Source of the DNA: Clostridia bacterium
GTDB lineage: Bacteria; Bacillota; Clostridia; Oscillospirales; CAG-272
Assembly (NCBI GenBank): GCA_017540175.1
Contig: JAFYBN010000059.1
Span: 3,768 to 67,767, forward strand
Direction of reading: 5' to 3'
Length of the DNA: 64,000 bases
Shown: positions 3,301-12,907 of the stretch, one piece after another
How positions within the stretch are numbered: position 1 is the first letter of the stretch
Layout: each line of letters begins with the position of its first letter
Translations under genes and position numbers: made by a program
The notes under the pieces: model-generated
What the model was told of the DNA's origin: nothing
Database searches by the model: none
What the model saw: only the letters and a program-made list of their open reading frames with translations

Positions 3301-3879
3301 ATGAAGCTGCTCGAGGACAGAATCCTGAAAGACGGCAAGGTCGGCGCGGGGAACGTGCTGAAGGTGGACAGCTTTCTCAACCATCAGATCGACGTGCCGT
3401 TCCTTTCCGAACTCGGTGGGGAGTTTTACAGGCGTTACCGGAACGACGGAATCACCAAAATCCTGACCATCGAGGCGTCCGGAATCGGGATCGCGTGCCT
3501 TACGGCGGCTTATTTCGGAGTCCCCGTTGTTTTTGCCAAAAAAACGCCCACGAACAACATCTCCGGCGACGTCTACACCGCGGAAGTGTACAGCTACACC
3601 CATGAGCGCACCTATACGATCCGTCTCTCGCGCGAATTCCTCACATCCGACGACCGCGTTCTCATCATCGACGACTTCCTCGCGAAGGGCAGCGCCCTGC
3701 TCGCACTCCTGAAGCTCGTCCACGACGCGGGCGCGTCCGTCGCGGGCGCCGGCATCGTGATCGAGAAGGCGTACCAGCCCGGCGGCGGGATCGTGCGGGC
3801 GCAGGGTGTGCGCGTCGAATCGCTCGCGCGCATCGCGGCGATGGACGAGAGCGGCGTCGCCTTCGTCCCGGAGGAATAA
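3301..3879 (+). CDS. xpt: Xanthine phosphoribosyltransferase
   Basis: MKLLEDRILKDGKVGAGNVLKVDSFLNHQID… N-terminus and the PRPP-binding motif VLIIDDFLAKGSA are typical of Xpt. 192 aa. Confidence 0.9.
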   Translation: MKLLEDRILKDGKVGAGNVLKVDSFLNHQIDVPFLSELGGEFYRRYRNDGITKILTIEASGIGIACLTAAYFGVPVVFAKKTPTNNISGDVYTAEVYSYTHERTYTIRLSREFLTSDDRVLIIDDFLAKGSALLALLKLVHDAGASVAGAGIVIEKAYQPGGGIVRAQGVRVESLARIAAMDESGVAFVPEE

Positions 3880-3942: not shown

Positions 3943-5229
3943 ATGTTCAAGAAGTTTGCCGCTCTGGCTTTGGCGGCGATGATGCTCTTCACCTTCGCGA
4001 CCCTGTTTGCGGGCTGTTCCGGCTCCGCCGCCGATCTGAAAATCGGCTGCATCATGGTCGGCGACGAAACCGAAGGCTACACCAAGGCGCACATGGACGG
4101 CATCAAGGACGCGGCGAAGTCGCTCGGCATCGCCGACAACCAGATCATCTGGAAGTACAAGATTGAAGAGACCTCCGACTGCCTCGATGCGGCGACCGAC
4201 CTTGTCGGACAGGGCTGCACCGTCATCATCTCGAATTCCTACGGCCATCAGACCTACATGGCGCAGGCCGCGGAACAGTTCCCGGACGTGACCTTCGTCT
4301 CCATGACCGGCGACTTTGCGTCGATCTCCGGACTGAAGAACCTGAAGAACGGCTTCACCAAGGTGTATGAATCCCGTTACGTCTCCGGCGTGGTTGCCGG
4401 CATGAAGCTTGCCGAGCTGATCGCGGACGGCAAGGTTTCGAAGACCGCGACTCCCTACGCCTACGACGGCGACAACGTGAAGATCGGCTACGTCGGTGCG
4501 TTCAACTATGCGGAAGTGGTTTCCGGCTACACCGCCTTCTTCCTCGGCATCCGCTCCATCGTTCCGAACGTGACCATGGAAGTCAACTACACCAACTCCT
4601 GGTTCGATATCGATAAGGAAGCCGCCGCCGCGGAAACGCTCGTCGCGAACGGCTGCGTCATCATCGGTCAGCACGCGGACTCCACCGGCGCTCCCTCCGC
4701 CTGCGAAAAGCTCCTCGCCTCCGGCAAGATCTGCTATTCCGTCGGCTACAACGTGGACATGCTCCCCACCGCTCCGAACGCGGCTCTGACCTCCCCCACC
4801 AACACTTGGTCCGAGTTCTATAAGGAACTCTTCAAGGACGTCATGGACGGTAAGGACTTCCCGGTCGACCTCGCGAAGGGCTACGACCAGAACGGCGTCG
4901 CCATTACCGCGCTCGGCAAGTCCTGCGCGGCCGGCACCCAGGAAAAGGTCGATCAGGTCATCGCCGATCTGAAGTCGGGCAAGCTCCATGTCTTCGACAC
5001 CTCCACGTTCACCGTATCTCAGGAACAGAACACCTGCACCGTTGTTACGGACGCCGAAGGTCATCTCACCTCCTGCAAGGTCGACATGTCCTTCATGGAC
5101 TGGAGCACCATGACGCCCATCTATAAGGGCGACGTCGTCGAGTGCATCACGAACGGCTACTTCTCCGAATCCACGTTCCGCAGCGCTCCGTACTTCTCCG
5201 TCCGCATCGACGGCATCATCGAAAAATAA
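3943..5229 (+). CDS. BMP-family (PnrA/Med-like) ABC transporter substrate-binding lipoprotein, probably nucleoside-binding
   Basis: Lipoprotein signal with lipobox LFAGC, BMP-type body. AGGAGG RBS. Followed by a cognate ATPase and two permeases. Confidence 0.88.
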   Translation: MFKKFAALALAAMMLFTFATLFAGCSGSAADLKIGCIMVGDETEGYTKAHMDGIKDAAKSLGIADNQIIWKYKIEETSDCLDAATDLVGQGCTVIISNSYGHQTYMAQAAEQFPDVTFVSMTGDFASISGLKNLKNGFTKVYESRYVSGVVAGMKLAELIADGKVSKTATPYAYDGDNVKIGYVGAFNYAEVVSGYTAFFLGIRSIVPNVTMEVNYTNSWFDIDKEAAAAETLVANGCVIIGQHADSTGAPSACEKLLASGKICYSVGYNVDMLPTAPNAALTSPTNTWSEFYKELFKDVMDGKDFPVDLAKGYDQNGVAITALGKSCAAGTQEKVDQVIADLKSGKLHVFDTSTFTVSQEQNTCTVVTDAEGHLTSCKVDMSFMDWSTMTPIYKGDVVECITNGYFSESTFRSAPYFSVRIDGIIEK

Positions 5230-5338: not shown

Positions 5339-7453
5339 ATGCCGCGTCAAAACATGGAAGACGCAATCAGACTGGAACACATCACGAAGACCTTCGGCTC
5401 CGTCACGGCGAACCGGGATATCTCCCTTTCCATCCGGCGGGGGGAGATCCTCTCCCTGCTCGGTGAGAACGGCAGCGGCAAAACGACCCTGATGAACATT
5501 CTGTCCGGAATCTATTTTCCGGATGAAGGGCAGATTTTCGTGGGGGGAGAAGAGGTCACCATTTCCTCGCCCAAGGACGCGTTCGATCTCGGCATCGGCA
5601 TGATCCATCAGCATTTCAAGCTCGTGGACGTGTTTACCGCCGCGGAAAACATCGTCCTCGGTCTGCCTGCGGAGATGAACGGAGGGCGCCGCTTCGACAT
5701 CAAGGCGGCAACGTCAAAGATCCGGGAGATCTGCAGCCGCTACGGCTTCGACCTCGACCCGAATCAGAAGGTCTACGAAATGACCGTGTCGCAGAAGCAG
5801 ACGCTCGAGATCGTCAAGGTCCTCTACCGCGGCGCGGATATTCTCATTCTCGACGAGCCGACCGCGGTCCTCACGCCGCAGGAGACGCAGAAGCTCTTCG
5901 CCGTCATGCGGGAGATGAAGAAGGACAACAAAGCCGTCGTCATCATCACCCACAAGCTGCACGAGGTGCTCGACGTTTCCGACCGGGTCGCCATTCTCCG
6001 CAAGGGGGAGTACATCGGCACGGTCGATACGAAGGATGCCACCGAGCTTTCCCTTACCGAGATGATGGTGGGCAAAAAGGTCTCGCTCGACATCGAGCGG
6101 CAGGTTCCGAAGAACCCGGTTCGCCGGCTCAAGGTCGATCATCTGAGTGTGCTCGGGCCCGAGGGCGTTCCCGTGCTGAACGACGTCAGCTTCGAGGCGT
6201 TCGGCGGCGAGATCCTCGGCATCGCGGGCATCTCCGGCTGCGGGCAGAAGGAACTGCTCGAGGCCATCGCGGGACTGCAGATCACCGATGAAAATTCCTC
6301 GGTGAAGTTTTATCCGGCGGAGAACGAGCCGGAGAAGAAGAAAGAAGTCTCCAGACTTCTGAAAACAAACCGGACCCTCCTTCGGGTGCTGCTGCTGTCC
6401 CTCGTGACCTTCGGCATATACGGCATCGTCGCGAATACAAAACTCTCAAAGGATCTGAACCGCATCGCGTCCGGCAGGGACGGAAGAAAGACGATGAATT
6501 TCTGTCTGGCGCTCCTGCTCGGAGACGTGACGGCGGGAGTCGTGATGCTTGTATGGTTCCACAAGATTTCCAACCGGATCGGAAAAGAACTCGAAGCGCG
6601 CGGGATCTCCTATCCTATCAGCGCTTCGACCTTCTGGGGCTGGTTCTGTCTCGGCTCTTTGCTGTTCGGCGTCGGTCCGTTCGTCTATCTGCACAAATTC
6701 TATCAATCCATGTCTCTCCTGGCCGCGGATTATAACGCAAAGCTGATCGCGAAACAGGAAGAGGAAGACGCGAGAGACCTGGCGGAAGGCAGCAAAAGCG
6801 GCATTCAGCTTCTCGGCCTGACCCCGCGCCAGATCAAGGAGCTCGGCATCCACCTTTCCTTCGTGCCCGAGGATCGTCTCGGCATGGGGCTGGTCGGCTC
6901 GATGGGCATGACGGACAATATGATGCTCAAGAGCTACAACGAGGGCAAATCCCTCTTTACCGAGAAAAAAGCGCCGCGCTCGCTCGCGGAGGACGTCAAA
7001 TCCGAGCTCGCGGTCGTCGCCCCGTCGGTTAACACGCCCGTGAGGAGGCTGTCCGGCGGCAACGTGCAGAAGGTGCTCGTCGGGCGCGAGATCGCGGCGG
7101 CTCCCGCCGTTCTCATGACGGCGTACGCCGTGCGCGGACTCGATATCGGCACGTCCTATATGATCTACGTCCTGCTCAATGAGCAGAAGGCGAAGGGCGT
7201 CGCCGTGATCTATGTCGGCGAGGATCTCGACGTGCTGGTCGAGCTCTGCGACCGCATCCTCGTGCTCTGCGCGGGCAGGGTGACGGGCATCGTCGACGGA
7301 CGCACCGCGACCAAGGAAGAGATCGGACTTCTGATGACCAAGATCAAGAATACGAAGAACGGGGAACCGGAGAACGCAGAACCTGAAAACAGGGAAGCGG
7401 AGAACGGGGAACCGGAGAAAACGCCCGAAGAGACGAAAGGAGACGCGGAATGA
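5339..7453 (+). CDS. ABC transporter ATP-binding protein with two NBDs (BMP/ribose-type), carrying a ~165-aa membrane-domain insertion in NBD2
   Basis: NBD1: Walker A GENGSGKTT, Walker B ILILDEP. NBD2: GISGCGQKE, VPEDR, signature LSGGNVQK. Residues ~321-486 contain three hydrophobic helices resembling DUF4234. The stop overlaps the next start (ATGA). Confidence 0.9.
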   Translation: MPRQNMEDAIRLEHITKTFGSVTANRDISLSIRRGEILSLLGENGSGKTTLMNILSGIYFPDEGQIFVGGEEVTISSPKDAFDLGIGMIHQHFKLVDVFTAAENIVLGLPAEMNGGRRFDIKAATSKIREICSRYGFDLDPNQKVYEMTVSQKQTLEIVKVLYRGADILILDEPTAVLTPQETQKLFAVMREMKKDNKAVVIITHKLHEVLDVSDRVAILRKGEYIGTVDTKDATELSLTEMMVGKKVSLDIERQVPKNPVRRLKVDHLSVLGPEGVPVLNDVSFEAFGGEILGIAGISGCGQKELLEAIAGLQITDENSSVKFYPAENEPEKKKEVSRLLKTNRTLLRVLLLSLVTFGIYGIVANTKLSKDLNRIASGRDGRKTMNFCLALLLGDVTAGVVMLVWFHKISNRIGKELEARGISYPISASTFWGWFCLGSLLFGVGPFVYLHKFYQSMSLLAADYNAKLIAKQEEEDARDLAEGSKSGIQLLGLTPRQIKELGIHLSFVPEDRLGMGLVGSMGMTDNMMLKSYNEGKSLFTEKKAPRSLAEDVKSELAVVAPSVNTPVRRLSGGNVQKVLVGREIAAAPAVLMTAYAVRGLDIGTSYMIYVLLNEQKAKGVAVIYVGEDLDVLVELCDRILVLCAGRVTGIVDGRTATKEEIGLLMTKIKNTKNGEPENAEPENREAENGEPEKTPEETKGDAE

Positions 7454-8586
7454 ACGAACAGCCTGCAGCGAAAACCGTCTCCCGCGCGCACCGCGAGCCC
7501 CTCGTCCGGATCGCCATGCGCGACACCGTCTCCTTCGGCAAGAAGGCCGCCGTGCGCGCGGCCGCCATCGGAGCCGCGCTGATCCTCGACGCGATTTTCA
7601 TTGTCATCGTCACACGGCTCAACCCCATCGCCGTTTACAAGGAGATCGTCCTGGCGTCGTTCGGCACGCCCCTGCGCTTCATGTGGATGGTGCGCGACCT
7701 TGCCGCGCTTCTGTGCATCGGCATCGCGCTTGCCCCCGCGTTCAAAATGCGGTTCTGGAACATCGGCGCGGAAGGACAGGTACTCATGGGCGGCATGGCA
7801 ACCGCCATGTGCATGCTCTTCCTCGGCTCGAAGCTGCCGACGCCGCTGCTTTTCCTCGTCATGGTGCTGACCTCGCTTCTCGCCGGAGCGCTGTGGAGCT
7901 TCATTCCCGCGTTTTTCAAGGCGTTCTGGAACACCAACGAGACGCTGTTCACCCTGATGATGAACTACGTCGCCATTCAGATCGTCGCGTACGCGACGAA
8001 CATCTGGCGCGGACAGGCTTCCTCCCTCGGCATGATCAACATGGGGACGAAGGCGGGCTGGTTCCCGAAGCTGTTCGGGTACGATTTCTCGCTGAACATC
8101 ATCATCGTCGTCGTGCTGACGGTGCTTATGTATATCTACCTGCGCTTTACCAAGCACGGGTACGAAATCTCCGTCGTGGGCGAGAGCGAACGGACGGCGC
8201 GGTACGCCGGCATCGACGTGAAGAAGGTCACGATCCGCACGCTTCTCCTGTCCGGCGCGATCTGCGGACTTTGCGGCTTCATCATCGTCGCAGGCAACAA
8301 GCACACCATTTCGACCAATACCGCGGGCGGCGACGGCTTCACGGCGATCATCGTCGCGTGGCTTGCGAAATTCAATACCTTCTATATGGCGCTGATCTCC
8401 TTCCTGCTCATCTTCCTCGAAAAGGGAGCAGGACAGATCGCCTCGACCTACGGACTGAATGAGTACATCTCCGACATCATCTCCGGCATCATTCTGTTCT
8501 GCATCCTCGGCAGCGAATTCTTTATCCGCTACAAGATGATTTTCCGTCATAAGAGCGAAGAAGGAAAGGAGGGCGAGGACAAATGA
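7450..8586 (+). CDS. ABC transporter permease (BMP/ribose-type, first TMD)
   Basis: Polytopic membrane protein in operon position after the ATPase. Start overlaps the upstream stop. Confidence 0.88.
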   Translation: MNEQPAAKTVSRAHREPLVRIAMRDTVSFGKKAAVRAAAIGAALILDAIFIVIVTRLNPIAVYKEIVLASFGTPLRFMWMVRDLAALLCIGIALAPAFKMRFWNIGAEGQVLMGGMATAMCMLFLGSKLPTPLLFLVMVLTSLLAGALWSFIPAFFKAFWNTNETLFTLMMNYVAIQIVAYATNIWRGQASSLGMINMGTKAGWFPKLFGYDFSLNIIIVVVLTVLMYIYLRFTKHGYEISVVGESERTARYAGIDVKKVTIRTLLLSGAICGLCGFIIVAGNKHTISTNTAGGDGFTAIIVAWLAKFNTFYMALISFLLIFLEKGAGQIASTYGLNEYISDIISGIILFCILGSEFFIRYKMIFRHKSEEGKEGEDK

Positions 8587-9581
8587 TTCAGACCAATCTC
8601 CTTGCTTGGCTGCTCAGAGCCGTCCAGTTCGGCACGATCATCATCTTCGGCTCGCTCGGGGAGATTTTGACGGAGAAGTCCGGCAACCTCAACCTTGGCG
8701 TCCCCGGCATCATGTACCTCGGCTCGTTCGCGGGCTTTGCGTCCGCGTATCTCTATGAGAACAGCGCCGCGAATCCGATCCCGATCGTCTGCGTACTTCT
8801 CGCGCTCATCGCGGGATTCCTCGCCGCAGCGCTCGGCGGGCTGATTTACAGCTTCCTCACGATCACGCTTCGGGCGAACCAGAACGTGACCGGTCTCGCT
8901 CTGACGACCTTCGGCATGGGCGTGGCAAACTTCTTCGGCGGCTTCCTCCTGCAGGGCGAGGTCTACACCGCCGCCCCGATCTCCAACGCCGCCTTCGCGC
9001 ACAAGATCCCGTTTTTGTCCGATCGTCTCGGCGTCGTGGGAGAAGCGCTCTTCTCCTACGGTTTCCTCGCTTACGCGGCGATCCTGCTCGCCGTCGGGAT
9101 GCACATCTTTCTCAATAAGACGCGCGCCGGGCTGAATCTGCGCGCCGTCGGCGAAAACCCCGCGACCGCGGACGCCGCCGGCATCAGCGTGACGAAGTAC
9201 AAATACCTCGCTACCGTCATCGGCGCGGGCATTTCCGGCATCGGCGGACTCTATTACGTGCTAGACTACAACAACGGCATCTGGGCGACGACCGGACAGG
9301 TGGAAGCGCTCGGCTGGCTCGCCGTCGCGCTCGTCATCTTCACGACGTGGAAGCCTCTGAACGCCATCTGGGGCGCGTATCTGTTCGGCACGCTGTACTG
9401 GCTGTACAATTTCTTCCCGAAGCTGCTCGGCATGACCAATGTGGACCGCACCTCGGATCTCTTCCAGATGATCCCCTACCTTGTGACCATTCTGGTCCTT
9501 GTGATCGTCAGCCTGCGCCGCAAGCGCGAATCCCAGCCGCCCGCGTCGCTCGGCCTGGCATACTTCCGCGAAGAACGGTAA
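8583..9581 (+). CDS. ABC transporter permease (BMP/ribose-type, second TMD)
   Basis: Polytopic membrane protein. 4-nt overlap with the upstream gene. Confidence 0.88.
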   Translation: MIQTNLLAWLLRAVQFGTIIIFGSLGEILTEKSGNLNLGVPGIMYLGSFAGFASAYLYENSAANPIPIVCVLLALIAGFLAAALGGLIYSFLTITLRANQNVTGLALTTFGMGVANFFGGFLLQGEVYTAAPISNAAFAHKIPFLSDRLGVVGEALFSYGFLAYAAILLAVGMHIFLNKTRAGLNLRAVGENPATADAAGISVTKYKYLATVIGAGISGIGGLYYVLDYNNGIWATTGQVEALGWLAVALVIFTTWKPLNAIWGAYLFGTLYWLYNFFPKLLGMTNVDRTSDLFQMIPYLVTILVLVIVSLRRKRESQPPASLGLAYFREER

Positions 9582-10543: not shown

Positions 10544-12859
10544 TCAGCGGTCGGAACGGATCAGCTTTCCGACCTCGGCCATGTCGTCCTTGCAGATTGT
10601 TCGCATGTCCGCGGCGACGGCGGCGAGCTCCCGTGCGATCTCGTCCCGCGACGACAGGATGTCCGCGGCCGCGGATCTGATCGCGGCGGAGAGGGCTCCG
10701 GGCTTTTCAAGGAGCTCGGACAGCTCGAGGGAGCGGGGCTGGCGGAGCTGCTTCATCATGGACGAGACCTTCGGATCGTAGGACAGCCCGATGACGGGCG
10801 TGCCCGCGGAGGACGCGAAGATCAGGGAGTGCAGGCGCATGCCGGTGACGAACGCCGCTTTGCCGAGCACGCCGATGAGGTCGGGCGCGCATTCGGGACG
10901 CCAGAGAACGGGGGAGACGCCGCGTTCCCGGGCGAGCCGGACGGCTTCCTCGCACGCGGCGGTGTCCTGACTGTTCTGCATGGGAATGATCACCGGGGTG
11001 AGCCCGTATGTCCGCGCCGTCTCTACGAGCGCGTCGACCGCTTCCGTGACAAGGAGGCGGTCTTTTTCGCCGAGCGCCGTTTTCCGCCCGTTTTTCGGGA
11101 GCTTCGCGAGGGGACGGAGGGAGAGGGCGAAATAGGAGCCGGGGGAGATCCCGAGACCCGCGAGCAGGGCATTCAGCCGCTCCGGCGAGGAGGGCTTGAT
11201 GAGAAAGGCGGGGTCGGCGCTGACGCGGACGCGCTCCGAATCCACCCCGAGAGAAATCAGCTCCGCCTTCGAGTCCTCGTCCCGCACGGAGACGTAATCG
11301 GAGTGCCCGACGACGGACGCCGTGACGGAACGGTTTTTCTCGTTGCGGATGGGACCGATGCCGTTTGCGAACACCGCCGTTTTCGTTTTGACGTGCTGCG
11401 CGTAGGAGATCAGCCCCGCATAATAGCGCAGGCTCCGGCGGCTCGTCGTGTCCTGCAGAAGGCTTCCCCCTCCGGAGAGGAGCAGGGAGGACCTCCGGAT
11501 CGCGCGCGGCGCTGAGAAAAGCCCGAACCGGGAAACGCAGGCAAGCCCCGTGCGCTTCGCGTCCTTTTTCGGCTTCTTCGTCAGCGCGGCGATCTTCACG
11601 CCGGGCTTGGCTTCGGCAAGCGTTTCGGAAATGATGTCGAGCAGGGATTCGTCCCCTAAATTCCCAAATCCGTAATAACCGCTGATGACCGCGTCCGGGG
11701 CGGTTTTTTTCATGTGGAAGGGAACGGGCGAGGCGAGGGTCTTCTCATACATCCCGAGATAATCCTCCGCCATGCGCCGGGCGGTGTAGCGTTCCTCGAT
11801 GAACGCCCGGTTGAAGCACCCCATTTTCTCCCGCTCTTCCCGAGTCATGGAAAGCAGGGAGGAGAGGTCGGAAAAGAGGCTCTCCTCGTCGGCGAGGGGC
11901 AGACCGCGGCAGCAGAAATTCGTATTCACCGCCAAATCGATTTTCGTTGGATCGAAGACGCCGAGATTGCCCTGACCGCCCGCGAGGATGACGGGCTTCG
12001 CCGCCGCCATCGCCTCCAGCGCGGAGCGGGAGACCCCGACGAACACGTCCGCCGCCGAGCAGTATTCGTTGGTATTGGAGACAGCGCCCGTCACGGTGAC
12101 ATAAGGCCGTCCGATCGCGCGGTTCGCGTCCTCGGCGAGCGCGCGGATCTCTTCGAACTTCGTGCCGCCGCCCACGATCAGAAGATCGGTGTCGGGGAAC
12201 GCTTCGGCGAGCTTTGGGGCGAGCCGCGCGAGCTTCACGGCGGGGTCGGCGCGGTCCTCGTCGAGACGGCTCATGGTGACGATGCGCCGGTGCGCCGGAT
12301 CGAGCCCGTGGAGCTCGAGAACGGGGGCGGGGGAGACGTCGGGCGAGAATTTCTCGCAGTCCACGCCGTTGATGGTCGTGTGGATTTTCGCGCGGGGATA
12401 GCCGTACCCACTCACGAGGTAATCCGCGATGTCATCCGAGACTGCCATGACCCGCTCGCCCCAGCGCGCGATCATACGGTACAGGGGACCGAGCGAGAAA
12501 TTAAGGTGCGCCGTCGTGACGAAGCGGAATTTCAGCCCGCCCTCCAGTGCGAGCCGATCCCAGAGCAGACCGCAGATGAACGCCGGGATGCGCGCGTGCG
12601 CGTGGACGATGTCGAATTTGCCGTTTTTGATCAGGTCTTTGAGCCCGCGGTAGGAGCGGAGAACGGACAGGGGGTGCTTCGTGTGGAGCGGGAGCGTGAC
12701 GTGCTCCACGCCCGATTTCATGACCTCGTCCGCGTAGACCCCGCCGAACGACGCGAGAACCACGTCGTTCCCCATCGCCTTCAGCTCGCGGCAGAGCTCG
12801 AGAATGTGGGTCTCCGCGCCGCCGATGTTCATGGACATTGTGATCATTAAGATTTTCAT
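10544..12859 (-). CDS. Fusion protein: N-terminal family-4-like glycosyltransferase plus C-terminal polysaccharide pyruvyl transferase (CsaB-like)
   Basis: N-terminus MKILMITMSMNIGGAETHILEL… has the GT4 pattern. C-terminal half VISGYYGFGNLGDESLLD… has the CsaB/pyruvyl-transferase pattern. Start chosen at the ATG at 12859 (AGGAAA RBS) rather than the ORF-track start at 12901. Confidence 0.75.
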   Translation of the reverse strand: MKILMITMSMNIGGAETHILELCRELKAMGNDVVLASFGGVYADEVMKSGVEHVTLPLHTKHPLSVLRSYRGLKDLIKNGKFDIVHAHARIPAFICGLLWDRLALEGGLKFRFVTTAHLNFSLGPLYRMIARWGERVMAVSDDIADYLVSGYGYPRAKIHTTINGVDCEKFSPDVSPAPVLELHGLDPAHRRIVTMSRLDEDRADPAVKLARLAPKLAEAFPDTDLLIVGGGTKFEEIRALAEDANRAIGRPYVTVTGAVSNTNEYCSAADVFVGVSRSALEAMAAAKPVILAGGQGNLGVFDPTKIDLAVNTNFCCRGLPLADEESLFSDLSSLLSMTREEREKMGCFNRAFIEERYTARRMAEDYLGMYEKTLASPVPFHMKKTAPDAVISGYYGFGNLGDESLLDIISETLAEAKPGVKIAALTKKPKKDAKRTGLACVSRFGLFSAPRAIRRSSLLLSGGGSLLQDTTSRRSLRYYAGLISYAQHVKTKTAVFANGIGPIRNEKNRSVTASVVGHSDYVSVRDEDSKAELISLGVDSERVRVSADPAFLIKPSSPERLNALLAGLGISPGSYFALSLRPLAKLPKNGRKTALGEKDRLLVTEAVDALVETARTYGLTPVIIPMQNSQDTAACEEAVRLARERGVSPVLWRPECAPDLIGVLGKAAFVTGMRLHSLIFASSAGTPVIGLSYDPKVSSMMKQLRQPRSLELSELLEKPGALSAAIRSAAADILSSRDEIARELAAVAADMRTICKDDMAEVGKLIRSDR

Positions 12860-12907
12860 GCCGTTTTCCTGCCTGTATGTTTTGAGGATATCGGAACGCA
12901 CCCGTGC

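What the first reader, a model, noticed from the sequence alone, without database searches (positions are those of the whole stretch)
6299..6796. DUF4234-like transmembrane module inserted inside NBD2 of an ABC ATPase
The BMP-system ATPase is a normal tandem-NBD protein except for one region. After the NBD2 Walker A (GISGCGQKELLEAIAGLQ), about 165 residues are inserted before the conserved …GIQLLG…VPEDR segment.

The insert has three strongly hydrophobic helices (LLRVLLLSLVTFGIYGIV; FCLALLLGDVTAGVVMLVWF; FWGWFCLGSLLFGVGPFVYL). It also has the TxGIY…L(S/N)xxL(N)R and …VW(F)xK(I)…R(I/L)G pattern I associate with DUF4234. It is flanked by charged linkers (EPEKKKE; KQEEEDARD).

A membrane-embedded domain within a cytoplasmic NBD is structurally surprising. 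It could tether or gate the ATPase, or be a domain-insertion event. G+C in the insert looks slightly lower than in the flanks.
Basis: partly seen in the sequence, partly recalled or inferred. Interest (0 to 1): 0.62.

Follow-up and report, generated by a model that had tools for sequence, protein, structure and literature searches.

The report
Membrane protein nested in ABC ATPase
In one lineage of uncultured gut Clostridia, a whole small membrane protein of the DUF4234 family has been spliced in frame into a surface loop of the cytoplasmic ATPase of a nucleoside-type ABC importer; the fusion is real, transcribed and evolutionarily young, the same loop has independently gained membrane-like inserts in other bacteria, and what the insert does is still untested.

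Summary
ORF 5339-7453 (704 aa) is the tandem-NBD ATPase of a Bmp/PnrA-type ABC importer operon. It carries a 154-aa insert (aa 334-487, nt 6338-6799) that scores 68.8 bits on Pfam DUF4234 (cut-off 25.3). The insert sits at the tip of the beta-hairpin after the Walker-A helix of the catalytically degenerate NBD2. More than 100 orthologues, up to 84% identical, lack it, including a syntenic one. It corresponds to the entire conserved core of free-standing 130-230-aa DUF4234 proteins (55-60% identity). Its GC3 is foreign (0.70 against 0.856 +/- 0.021), and it has no flanking repeats. It is not an assembly artefact: it occurs on 8+ contigs from independent assemblies, as two alleles, and RNA-seq contigs cross both junctions. 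AlphaFold models the insert confidently (pLDDT 93-98) as six helices with no solved structural analogue. Unexpectedly, unrelated hydrophobic inserts occupy the same NBD2 hairpin, and an NBD1 loop, in other Bmp-type ATPases. One is a Chloroflexota-like clade in which the inserts persist down to 67% identity. The most likely reading is a recent capture of a whole gene, now acting as an autonomous membrane anchor on the non-catalytic NBD. Function, topology and selection on the insert remain unproven.

The parts
3301..3879 (+). Phosphoribosyltransferase gene (192 aa), first gene of the conserved salvage/uptake cluster.
   Evidence: ORF. It is called PF00156 Pribosyltran at the same position in L087-L091 and in the insert-free locus L002.
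3943..5229 (+). Bmp/PnrA-like substrate-binding lipoprotein (428 aa).
   Evidence: Pfam PF02608 Bmp, E = 3e-24.
5339..7453 (+). Tandem-NBD ABC ATPase with the nested DUF4234 module (704 aa). Gene callers start it at Met6, nt 5354.
   Evidence: P0500 is the same protein read from Met6.
6227..6253 (+). Degenerate Walker A of NBD2 (GISGCGQKE, aa 297-305). It has Q where the canonical Lys sits and K where Ser/Thr sits.
   Evidence: Read from the sequence. The residues are invariant in A1. The canonical motif is GxxGxGK[ST] (established knowledge).
6311..6376 (+). N-side linker (aa 325-346): native acidic loop residues (YPAENEPEKK) followed by the tail of the donor's variable N-terminal region (KEVSRLLKTNRT).
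   Evidence: A1 and A2. pLDDT is below 50 at aa 331-337 in the full-length model.
6338..6799 (+). The insert (aa 334-487, 154 aa): a captured DUF4234 gene core plus a C-side linker.
   Evidence: Absent from all insert-free orthologues (A1). 55-60% identical to free-standing DUF4234 proteins over 83% of its length. GC3 is 0.70. tblastn finds it as a single copy in the window.
6371..6583 (+). Pfam DUF4234 match (aa 345-415), covering hydrophobic segments 1 and 2.
6377..6430 (+). Hydrophobic segment 1 (aa 347-364, LLRVLLLSLVTFGIYGIV), with a kink at TFG in the model.
   Evidence: KD 2.17. Helices 347-356 and 360-381.
6500..6559 (+). Hydrophobic segment 2 (aa 388-407, FCLALLLGDVTAGVVMLVWF), with a kink at TAG. 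It contains both allele differences, D396A and G400E.
   Evidence: KD 2.17. Helices 388-397 and 401-420. Allele differences.
6632..6691 (+). Hydrophobic segment 3 (aa 432-451, FWGWFCLGSLLFGVGPFVYL). It is only moderately hydrophobic, rich in W, G and P, and kinked at GVGP. It is a candidate re-entrant or interfacial element.
   Evidence: KD 1.51. Helices 429-441 and 446-483.
6692..6799 (+). C-side connector (aa 452-487): the donor's C-terminal amphipathic segment (…ADYNAK) running on into a charged linker (LIAKQEEEDARDLAEGSKS). It is modelled as one long helix back to NBD2.
   Evidence: A2 shows that free-standing proteins end at …YNxKG. Helix 446-483.
6800..7342 (+). Remainder of NBD2. It includes VPEDR (the Q-loop equivalent), the canonical signature LSGGNVQK (nt 7049-7072) and the degenerate Walker B VLMTAYAV (nt 7109-7132, no Asp-Glu).
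   Evidence: The sequence and the invariant columns of A1.
7343..7450 (+). Acidic, low-complexity C-terminal tail (…NGEPENAEPENREAENGEPEKTPEETKGDAE). It is hypervariable between alleles.
7450..8586 (+). Permease 1 (BPD_transp_2). Its start codon overlaps the ATPase stop codon.
   Evidence: Pfam E = 1.4e-31. ORF coordinates.
8583..9581 (+). Permease 2 (BPD_transp_2).
   Evidence: Pfam E = 7.8e-34.

Best explanation
SHOWN. The gene encodes the single ATPase subunit of a Bmp/PnrA-type (nucleoside-type) ABC importer operon: PRTase, Bmp binding protein, ATPase and two permeases. In one narrow lineage of uncultured gut Clostridia, the conserved core of a complete free-standing DUF4234 small-membrane-protein gene was captured in frame. 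It landed at the tip of a short, length-variable acidic beta-hairpin loop that follows the Walker-A helix of NBD2. NBD2 in this family is catalytically degenerate: Walker A is GxxGxGQKE and Walker B lacks Asp-Glu, while NBD2 still supplies the canonical LSGGN signature to the active NBD1 site. The capture happened after the split from the nearest insert-free orthologue (dS ~0.7). The insert is still compositionally foreign, it is fixed in two alleles seen in many samples, and it is transcribed through both junctions.

INFERRED. The module folds on its own as a compact six-helix, membrane-embedded unit. Both of its ends lie on the cytoplasmic face. The most likely arrangement is two membrane-spanning helices plus a W/G/P-rich re-entrant or interfacial third element. 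It is joined to NBD2 by a flexible ~22-residue N-side linker and a long (~30-residue) cytoplasmic helix. It therefore acts as an extra membrane anchor placed beside the permeases on the non-catalytic NBD, and the ATPase cycle at the NBD1 site stays intact. Whether the anchor is selectively useful or merely tolerated is open. The recurrence of unrelated hydrophobic inserts at this same hairpin in other Bmp-type ATPases shows that the architecture is viable and can be retained over the long term.
For: - Identity and boundaries: Pfam DUF4234 E = 4.4e-19. Alignment A1 shows a clean 154-aa gap in 12 orthologues.
- Restricted distribution: only one 90%-identity cluster carries the insert, among 8000 scored relatives of which the best 120 were listed, and none of the 150 best 50%-identity representatives does.
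- Orthology: the insert-free L002/L003 locus has the same PRTase-Bmp-ATPase-permease-permease synteny. The window holds no second Bmp-type ATPase and no other DUF4234 gene.
- Whole-gene capture: the insert aligns from LKTNR to the C-terminal ADYNxK of 130-230-aa free-standing proteins.
- Foreign composition: GC3 of 0.70 lies more than 7 SD below the operon windows.
- Not an artefact: Logan contigs from two studies span both junctions with 0 mismatches. Allele A is on 8 contigs from four or more assemblies next to rpoBC. Allele B is on L001 and L091.
- Transcription: RNA-seq contigs cross the 5' junction (X22, X23) and the 3' junction (X24) with 0 mismatches.
- Fold: pLDDT is 93-98 over aa 341-470 in the full model. 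The insert-only model has pTM 0.80.
- N-terminus cytoplasmic: relatives carry an N-terminal J-domain and zinc ribbons.
- Charge distribution: the 2-TM-plus-re-entrant model puts 9.0 K+R residues inside against 3.4 outside on the family average.
- The host NBD is degenerate across the whole family (invariant columns of A1; A9).
- Viability of the architecture: P0307 and P0381-P0387 (682-702 aa, 67-100% identical) keep hydrophobic inserts at the same NBD2 hairpin and in an NBD1 loop, within a Bmp operon. P0364, P0261 and the 10-member P0378 cluster are further independent cases.
Against: - Nothing here shows directly that the module is in the membrane, or that the transporter still works.
- The module has three hydrophobic segments. 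A plain 3-TM topology would put its two ends on opposite sides of the membrane and is incompatible with nesting.
- In the window's copy, loop 1 carries 6 K+R residues (net +4), against a family mean of 3.4 (net +1.1). That is awkward for an exported loop.
- The two alleles differ by only 3 nt in the insert, the same as the ~99.6% backbone identity, so purifying selection on the insert cannot be demonstrated.
- The insert is an outlier within its family. It mismatches 8 of 44 positions that are at least 90% conserved, against a family median of 2.3%. Its nearest neighbour is 61% identical, against a family median of 82%. Allele B changes a Gly (G400E) that is invariant in the 14-sequence alignment A2. 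Both observations fit relaxed constraint equally well.
- The NBD2 helical subdomain (aa 510-581) was poorly modelled.
- DUF4234 has no known function, no structural analogue, and no genomic association with transporters.
Confidence: 0.6

Rival explanations
1. Tolerated passenger or crippling insertion. The capture is a recent accident with no benefit. NBD2 folding or docking is impaired, the transporter is weakened or dead, and the gene has not yet had time to decay.
For: - The event is young. GC3 has not ameliorated, and there are only 3 nt differences between alleles in the insert.
- The insert departs from family-conserved positions far more than typical members do, 18% against a median of 2.3%.
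- Allele B has G400E, and allele A has Asp396 inside hydrophobic segment 2.
- There is no conserved link between DUF4234 and transporters.
- The fusion is confined to a single narrow lineage.
Against: - The reading frame is intact in every copy seen: two alleles on 10 or more contigs.
- The gene is transcribed across both junctions.
- It is the only ATPase of a syntenic core-genome operon.
- The flanking NBD sequence shows omega 0.13-0.24 between the insert-bearing alleles, although recombination patches blur this measure.
- All residues invariant in the 14-sequence family alignment are retained.
- Comparable inserts at the same loop are stably retained in another clade.
Confidence: 0.27
2. 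Neofunctionalised regulatory module. The DUF4234 unit does more than anchor. It might contact the permeases, or sense the state of the membrane or a ligand, and so gate ATP binding or hydrolysis through the degenerate NBD2 site.
For: - The insert lies directly after the Walker-A helix of the regulatory (degenerate) site.
- A rigid ~38-residue helix links the module back to the hairpin, which could transmit movement.
- The module keeps the family's conserved loop motifs.
- Loop 1 has gained positive charge relative to the family.
Against: - No function is known for DUF4234. Only one paper mentions it, in a table of domain annotations.
- It has no structural analogue.
- It does not co-occur with Bmp operons: 0 of 80 loci.
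- The analogous inserts in other lineages are unrelated in sequence. That argues for a generic property, hydrophobic anchoring, rather than a specific activity.
Confidence: 0.1
3. Artefact. The region is an assembly chimera or a hidden frameshift that joins two genes, or it is only a normal variable loop without membrane helices.
For: The source is metagenomic. The exact 704-aa translation is not itself in the protein collection.
Against: - The same protein read from Met6 (P0500) is on 8 contigs from independent assemblies.
- Logan contigs from different studies and RNA-seq contigs cross both junctions with 0 mismatches, and no excision joint at 6338/6799 is seen.
- Depth across the insert equals that of the flanking unique sequence.
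- The frame is continuous.
- The Pfam match and the hydropathy profile rule out an ordinary loop.
Confidence: 0.02

Closest known systems
ATPase subunits of Bmp/PnrA-type nucleoside ABC importers (CUT2-like tandem-NBD ATPases; binding proteins such as B. burgdorferi BmpD and S. pneumoniae PnrA)
   Same: It has two ABC_tran domains in one chain and sits in an operon with a Bmp binding protein and two BPD_transp_2 permeases. It is 74-84% identical to insert-free orthologues outside the insert. NBD1 is canonical and NBD2 is degenerate. The role of the family in nucleoside uptake comes from PMC7093131.
   Different: It carries a 154-aa membrane-protein module nested inside NBD2. It therefore scores far below every NCBIfam equivalog cut-off. 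The substrate was not tested.
Free-standing DUF4234 (PF14018) small membrane proteins of Clostridia, often with an N-terminal zinc ribbon
   Same: The insert covers their whole conserved core at 55-60% identity, with the same three hydrophobic segments and the same motifs (TxGIY, DGKKTM, VWxHK, GPFxY, YN).
   Different: All 80 closest genomic relatives are separate genes of 131-305 aa that end at …YNxKG. Their only extensions are N-terminal ones. In the window, both ends of the module are covalently continuous with a cytoplasmic ATPase domain. The copy is also an unusually divergent member of the family.
Bmp-type ATPases with unrelated hydrophobic NBD inserts, found here: the P0307/P0381-P0387 clade, P0388/P0389, P0424, P0364, P0261 and the P0378 cluster
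   Same: They belong to the same ATPase family and operon type. Their inserts occupy the identical NBD2 hairpin, or an NBD1 loop after the Q-loop, and each contains membrane-helix-like segments.
   Different: The inserts are not DUF4234 and match no Pfam family. Most look like two-helix hairpins. They are older and conserved within a clade, down to 67% identity, whereas the window's insert is a recently captured, recognisable gene.
Known insertions and fusions in ABC ATPases: the CFTR NBD1 regulatory insertion, the ABCF arm and linker, the SMC/Rad50 coiled coil, the UvrA insertion domains, and end-to-end TMD-NBD fusions (recalled from general knowledge, not tested here)
   Same: The ABC NBD tolerates large insertions in surface loops. 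The CFTR regulatory insertion also lies in the beta-subdomain. Membrane and ATPase domains are often joined in a single chain. P0234, found here, is an ATPase-permease fusion.
   Different: The known nested inserts are soluble or disordered, and the known membrane fusions are end to end. Here a membrane module is nested within the NBD fold. I found no paper describing this, but the searchable library is incomplete.

Membership tests
Bmp/PnrA-type (CUT2-like) ABC importer ATPase | Two ABC_tran nucleotide-binding domains in one polypeptide. | tested here: met
   PF00005 matches in 2 stretches, E = 3.7e-37. The best NCBIfam hits are tandem-NBD sugar, B6 and ribose ATPases, each matched in two stretches.
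Bmp/PnrA-type (CUT2-like) ABC importer ATPase | Operon with a Bmp-family binding protein and two BPD_transp_2 permeases. | tested here: met
   Pfam on the neighbouring ORFs. The same order occurs in L002, L086, L087-L091.
Bmp/PnrA-type (CUT2-like) ABC importer ATPase | Canonical NBD1 (Walker A GENGSGKT, Walker B ILILDEPT) paired with a degenerate NBD2 that still carries the LSGGN signature. | tested here: met
   Read from the sequence. The residues are invariant across A1 and A9.
Bmp/PnrA-type (CUT2-like) ABC importer ATPase | Full-length match above a curated equivalog cut-off. | tested here: not met
   The best hit is NF047930 at 381 bits against a cut-off of 670. The insert splits the match, and no equivalog model exists for this subfamily.
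Bmp/PnrA-type (CUT2-like) ABC importer ATPase | Energises nucleoside uptake. | not testable with these tools
   Inferred only from the Bmp binding protein, the adjacent phosphoribosyltransferase gene, and the literature on BmpD and PnrA.
DUF4234 (PF14018) | Score above Pfam's gathering threshold. | tested here: met
   68.8 bits in the whole protein and 74.3 bits for the insert alone, against a cut-off of 25.3.
DUF4234 (PF14018) | Conserved residues of the close subfamily. | tested here: met
   All 28 invariant columns of the 14-sequence alignment A2 are retained. Of the positions at least 90% conserved in A7, 36 of 44 are retained. The 8 mismatches are mostly conservative but make the insert an outlier in its family.
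DUF4234 (PF14018) | Small free-standing protein with a free C-terminus, optionally with an N-terminal zinc ribbon. | tested here: not met
   All 80 genomic relatives are separate ORFs of 131-305 aa ending at …YNxKG. The window's copy is nested in a 704-aa protein.
DUF4234 (PF14018) | Integral membrane location and a defined topology. | not testable with these tools
   Only hydropathy, charge bias and AlphaFold secondary structure are available. No topology predictor and no model coordinates were on hand.
Mobile-element or transposon-type insertion | Terminal inverted repeats or a target-site duplication at the insert boundaries. | tested here: not met
   Only short chance repeats are found, none at positions 6338 or 6799. 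Junction alignments show no duplication.

The most novel reading that the evidence does not exclude
Nested membrane anchors in the nucleotide-binding domains may define an unrecognised architectural class of Bmp-type ABC importers, in which the 'cytoplasmic' ATPase is itself an integral membrane protein. On this reading, the class arose repeatedly at two permissive loops (the NBD2 hairpin and the loop after the NBD1 Q-loop) and is maintained by selection in some clades. The window would then preserve the youngest known example, and it would show the birth mechanism directly: in-frame capture of an entire small membrane-protein gene whose two ends lie on the cytoplasmic side.
Probability: 0.3. 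Interest if true: 0.75.

Novelty: new variant of a known kind. Interest (0 to 1): 0.6.

Why it matters
ABC transporter NBDs are the textbook example of soluble engine domains that dock beneath the membrane. A membrane module nested within one is unexpected.

- If the fused protein works, the beta-hairpin after the Walker-A helix of the degenerate NBD faces the membrane closely enough to be tethered there, and the domain tolerates a 154-aa insertion. That is useful for engineering, for example as an insertion site for reporters or anchors.
- The case gives a dated, recognisable example of how multi-domain membrane proteins arise by capture of a whole gene.
- The nesting constrains the topology of the uncharacterised DUF4234 family, because both ends must lie on the same, cytoplasmic side.
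- The independent hydrophobic inserts at the same loop in Chloroflexota-like ATPases suggest a wider, undescribed phenomenon in this transporter family.

Tried and rejected
1. A combined alignment of 33 ATPases and 67 DUF4234 proteins (A3) scattered the short sequences along the whole ATPase. I discarded it and rebuilt it as A4 and A5.

2. dN/dS on the insert between the two alleles is uninformative, because there are only 3 differences. A 13-kb comparison shows that the strains are ~99.6% identical, apart from patches that look imported by recombination. The large divergent block starts at ~7019, not at the insert edge. There is therefore no sweep or barrier signal tied to the insert.

3. Rosetta-stone idea: that free-standing DUF4234 genes sit next to Bmp operons. 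None of 80 loci does. The neighbours are mainly other small zinc-ribbon, DUF2752 or TM2 membrane proteins.

4. Donor search. The exact-peptide scan of 185,579 species genomes found nothing. The profile scan found 519 DUF4234 loci, but none more than 59% identical. The window holds no paralogue. The donor remains unidentified.

5. A mobile-element footprint (terminal repeats or a target-site duplication) was not found.

6. Structural analogues of the module: none in the PDB or BFVD. The best E-values are 2 and 0.97, with TM-scores of 0.30 or less.

7. My first ORF script read through stop codons and suggested C-terminal fusions in L006, L028, L049 and L064. Inspection showed that every one of them ends at …YNxKG*.

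8. The literature searches found only one incidental mention of DUF4234, and nothing on membrane domains nested in NBDs.

9. Geometry, that is, whether the hairpin tip faces the membrane and whether the three units are re-entrant, could not be measured. Model coordinates are not exposed.
Full report
**What is there.** The window carries a five-gene cluster on the + strand:

| Gene | Coordinates |
|---|---|
| Phosphoribosyltransferase | 3301-3879 |
| Bmp/PnrA-like substrate-binding protein | 3943-5229 |
| 704-aa tandem-NBD ABC ATPase | 5339-7453 |
| BPD_transp_2 permease 1 | 7450-8586 |
| BPD_transp_2 permease 2 | 8583-9581 |

Longer contigs that carry the identical gene place the cluster just downstream of rpoB, rpoC and an AMP-dependent ligase, so it lies in core chromosome. 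Bmp-family binding proteins serve nucleoside ABC importers (PMC7093131, found). The substrate here is inferred, not tested.

**Checking the observation.** Pfam finds two ABC_tran domains. Between the parts of the second one it finds DUF4234 (PF14018) at aa 345-415, E = 4.4e-19, 68.8 bits against a cut-off of 25.3. Hydropathy shows two strong hydrophobic segments (aa 347-365 and 388-406, about 2.15) and a weaker third segment rich in W, G and P (aa 432-451, 1.51). Nothing comparable occurs elsewhere in the protein.

Alignment with insert-free orthologues gives clean boundaries (A1). The insert is aa 334-487 (nt 6338-6799), 154 residues. It replaces nothing. It sits inside a short acidic loop, which in relatives reads …SSIEFYPP-EQEGGE-ELVGRSPREIK…. 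One relative, P0039, has its own 12-residue expansion there, so the loop is naturally variable in length.

In the AlphaFold model the flanking strands are aa 321-324 and 489-490. The insertion point is therefore the tip of the beta-hairpin that follows the Walker-A helix of NBD2.

**How restricted it is.** Of the 8000 relatives scored, the best 120 were listed. Only one 90%-identity cluster among them carries DUF4234. The rest are about 509-590 aa and up to 84% identical.

An exhaustive HMMER pass over 1.84 billion cluster representatives listed 150 best matches, and none has DUF4234. The closest insert-free orthologue (P0003, locus L002) has identical synteny, so this is the orthologous locus and not a paralogue. 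The window contains no second Bmp-type ATPase and no other DUF4234 gene.

**Where the insert came from.** Searched alone, the insert finds about 110 free-standing DUF4234 proteins, mostly 130-230 aa, at 45-60% identity over about 83% of its length. The alignment runs from their conserved LKTNR, just before the first hydrophobic segment, to their C-terminal …ADYNxKG (A2).

In 80 named genomes, mostly Oscillospiraceae, Acutalibacteraceae, Ruminococcus and other Clostridia MAGs, every relative is a separate small ORF ending at that motif. The only extensions are N-terminal zinc ribbons and P/Q-rich linkers.

The insert is thus essentially an entire gene, lacking only its start, its variable N-terminus and its stop. 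About 20 extra residues (LIAKQEEEDARDLAEGSKS) lead back into NBD2. Three further points bear on its origin:

- Its GC3 is 0.70, against 0.856 +/- 0.021 (minimum 0.79) for equal-sized windows of the operon. It is therefore compositionally foreign and has not ameliorated.
- No repeats or target-site duplication flank it.
- No donor closer than 61% identity exists in the databases.

**Is it real and expressed?**

- Logan contigs from two different studies (X1 record 7 and X4 record 28) cover 6214-7077 with no mismatch. Depth over the insert equals the depth of the unique flanks, and no joint corresponding to a precise excision is seen.
- The same protein read from Met6 (P0500) is on 8 contigs from at least four assemblies.
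- A second allele (P0001/P0501, loci L001 and L091) differs in the insert only by D396A and G400E.
- RNA-seq contigs from two studies cross the 5' junction (6245-6492 and 6279-6475), and another crosses the 3' junction (6768-6918), all without mismatches. Depth is low, and DNA carry-over cannot be excluded.

A chimera or a frameshift is therefore excluded as far as public data allow.

**Age and selection.** Against the insert-free orthologue the flanks show dS of about 0.72-0.75 and omega of about 0.16, which sets an upper bound on the age of the capture.

The two insert-bearing strains are about 99.6% identical over 13 kb, apart from a few strongly divergent patches that look imported by recombination. 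These lie at 3547-3796, 4797-5046, 5836-5935 and 7019-8046, and reach 36% divergence at 7297-7546. The 3 differences in the insert simply match the backbone. Selection on the insert therefore cannot be measured, and no sweep centres on it.

Measured against its family, the captured copy is an outlier. It mismatches 8 of 44 positions that are at least 90% conserved, against a family median of 2.3%, which ranks it 8th worst of 111. Most of the changes are conservative. Its nearest neighbour is 61% identical, against a family median of 82%. This fits either an unsampled donor lineage or altered constraint after capture.

**Structure and topology.** With a combined alignment (A5), AlphaFold models aa 341-470 at pLDDT 93-98. 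The N-side linker falls below 50. The NBD2 helical subdomain (aa 510-581) is poorly modelled, probably because the ATPase part of the alignment is shallow and noisy.

The insert alone gives pTM 0.80. Both models show six helices arranged as three helix-kink-helix units, kinked at the conserved TFG, TAG and GVGP motifs. The last helix (446-483, 38 residues) runs unbroken into the linker. No solved or viral predicted structure resembles the module.

Nesting in a cytoplasmic domain requires both ends of the module to be on the cytoplasmic side. The N-end is cytoplasmic in relatives that carry a J-domain or zinc ribbons. A plain three-span topology is therefore excluded for a functional fusion.

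Family-wide K+R counts are N-flank 2.0, loop 1 3.4, loop 2 4.5 and C-flank 2.5. They favour two spans plus a re-entrant or interfacial third element (9.0 inside against 3.4 outside). They are also compatible with three monotopic hairpins. The Pfam model itself covers only the first two segments.

About 30 helical residues beyond the hydrophobic part give roughly 45 Å at 1.5 Å per residue. Together with a 22-residue flexible linker, this is long enough to bridge from the membrane to an NBD. That is arithmetic on secondary structure, not a measured model.

**Why this site is permissive.** NBD1 is canonical: Walker A GENGSGKT, Walker B ILILDEPT. NBD2 has Walker A GISGCGQKE, a Walker B region VLMTAYAV without Asp-Glu, and a canonical LSGGNVQK signature. 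The NBD1 signature is degenerate (VSQKQ). All of these residues are invariant in the orthologues.

By standard ABC logic there is one catalytic composite site (NBD1 P-loop with NBD2 signature) and one degenerate site. The insert lies next to the degenerate P-loop, in a surface loop of variable length.

**An unexpected wider pattern.** Among the 150 best representatives, several distant Bmp-type ATPases (41-48% identical) carry long hydrophobic inserts that are not DUF4234 and match no Pfam family.

- P0364 (702 aa) and P0307 (684 aa) have their inserts at the same NBD2 hairpin.
- P0307, P0261 (a Chloroflexia MAG) and the 10-member P0378 cluster have one in the NBD1 loop after the Q-loop.
- P0307 lies in a Bmp-ATPase-permease-permease operon.
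- The relatives of P0307, P0381-P0387 (682-702 aa), keep both inserts down to 67% identity at 99-100% coverage.
- P0388 and P0389 have only a shorter NBD2 insert, and P0424 only the NBD1 insert.

Membrane-helix-like modules nested in these two loops have thus arisen several times, and they can persist. This is the strongest indirect evidence that the window's architecture is viable and that the hairpin can reach the membrane.

**Native role of DUF4234.** Unknown. The only paper that mentions the family lists it as a domain annotation of an E. faecalis low-biofilm transposon mutant. Genes flanking the free-standing homologues are mainly other small zinc-ribbon, DUF2752 or TM2 membrane proteins. 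None of 80 loci has a Bmp or permease neighbour. The fusion is therefore not a Rosetta stone for a general link between DUF4234 and transporters.

**Verdict.** The finding is real and correctly interpreted as a DUF4234 membrane module nested in NBD2. It is best explained as a recent capture of a whole gene into a permissive, membrane-proximal loop of the non-catalytic NBD, which yields an ATPase with its own membrane anchor. Whether the anchor is adaptive, neutral or harmful is open. The recurrence of analogous inserts elsewhere makes 'viable, and possibly useful' the more likely answer. I found no published description of such an architecture, but the searchable library is incomplete.

Noticed in passing
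L086:5466-7520 (P0307); proteins P0381-P0389, P0424, P0364 (L085:350-2458), P0261, P0378: Other Bmp-type tandem ATPases carry unrelated hydrophobic inserts that match no Pfam family. The inserts lie at the same NBD2 hairpin and/or in the NBD1 loop after the Q-loop. In a Chloroflexota-like clade they are conserved down to 67% identity, and variants exist with only one of the two inserts.
   Followed up: partly
window 3547-3796, 4797-5046, 5836-5935, 7019-8046: Compared with strain L091, which is ~99.6% identical elsewhere, these patches are strongly divergent, reaching 91 differences in 250 nt at 7297-7546. This looks like imported recombination tracts within the Bmp operon. None of the patches removes or abuts the insert.
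   Followed up: partly
window 7343-7546: The ATPase ends in an acidic, repetitive tail (NGEPENAEPENREAENGEPEKTPEE…). That tail and the N-terminus of the first permease are the most divergent stretch between the alleles (dS ~1.8 in the tail).
   Followed up: no
window 5339 vs 5354: The start codon is ambiguous. The longest ORF starts at ATG 5339, with a GGAAAGGA Shine-Dalgarno-like element 12 nt upstream. Gene callers and all orthologues start at the MEDAI… Met, nt 5354.
   Followed up: partly
window 6524-6538 (aa 396 and 400): Both alleles place one acidic residue inside hydrophobic segment 2, but at different positions one helical turn apart: D396 with G400 in the window, A396 with E400 in allele B. 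Free-standing relatives have no acidic residue there, and G400 is invariant in the 14-sequence alignment A2.
   Followed up: no
window 6431-6499 (loop 1, aa 365-387): In the captured copy, loop 1 has 6 K+R residues (net +4), against a family mean of 3.4 (net +1.1). The changes include Y-to-R at a position that is at least 90% conserved. This may be a sign of changed topology or constraint after capture.
   Followed up: no
L005-L084 (80 DUF4234 loci in named genomes): Free-standing DUF4234 genes tend to neighbour other small membrane or zinc-ribbon proteins: Zn_Ribbon_1 x10, DUF2752 x7, TM2 x6 and DZR x5 among 132 flanking ORFs. One hit lies in a Bifidobacterium indicum genome, outside the Clostridia.
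   Followed up: partly
proteins P0234, P0265, P0233: Other unusual architectures occur in the same ATPase family. P0234 is a 913-aa ATPase-permease fusion. P0265 is an ATPase fused to BspA-type leucine-rich repeats. P0233 has hydrophilic, Lys/Glu-rich inserts at both of the loops that elsewhere carry hydrophobic inserts.
   Followed up: no
window 10544-12901 (-): A 785-aa ORF downstream of the operon combines glycosyltransferase (Glyco_transf_4/Glycos_transf_1) and polysaccharide pyruvyl-transferase domains, according to the precomputed Pfam hits for the identical gene in L087.
   Followed up: no
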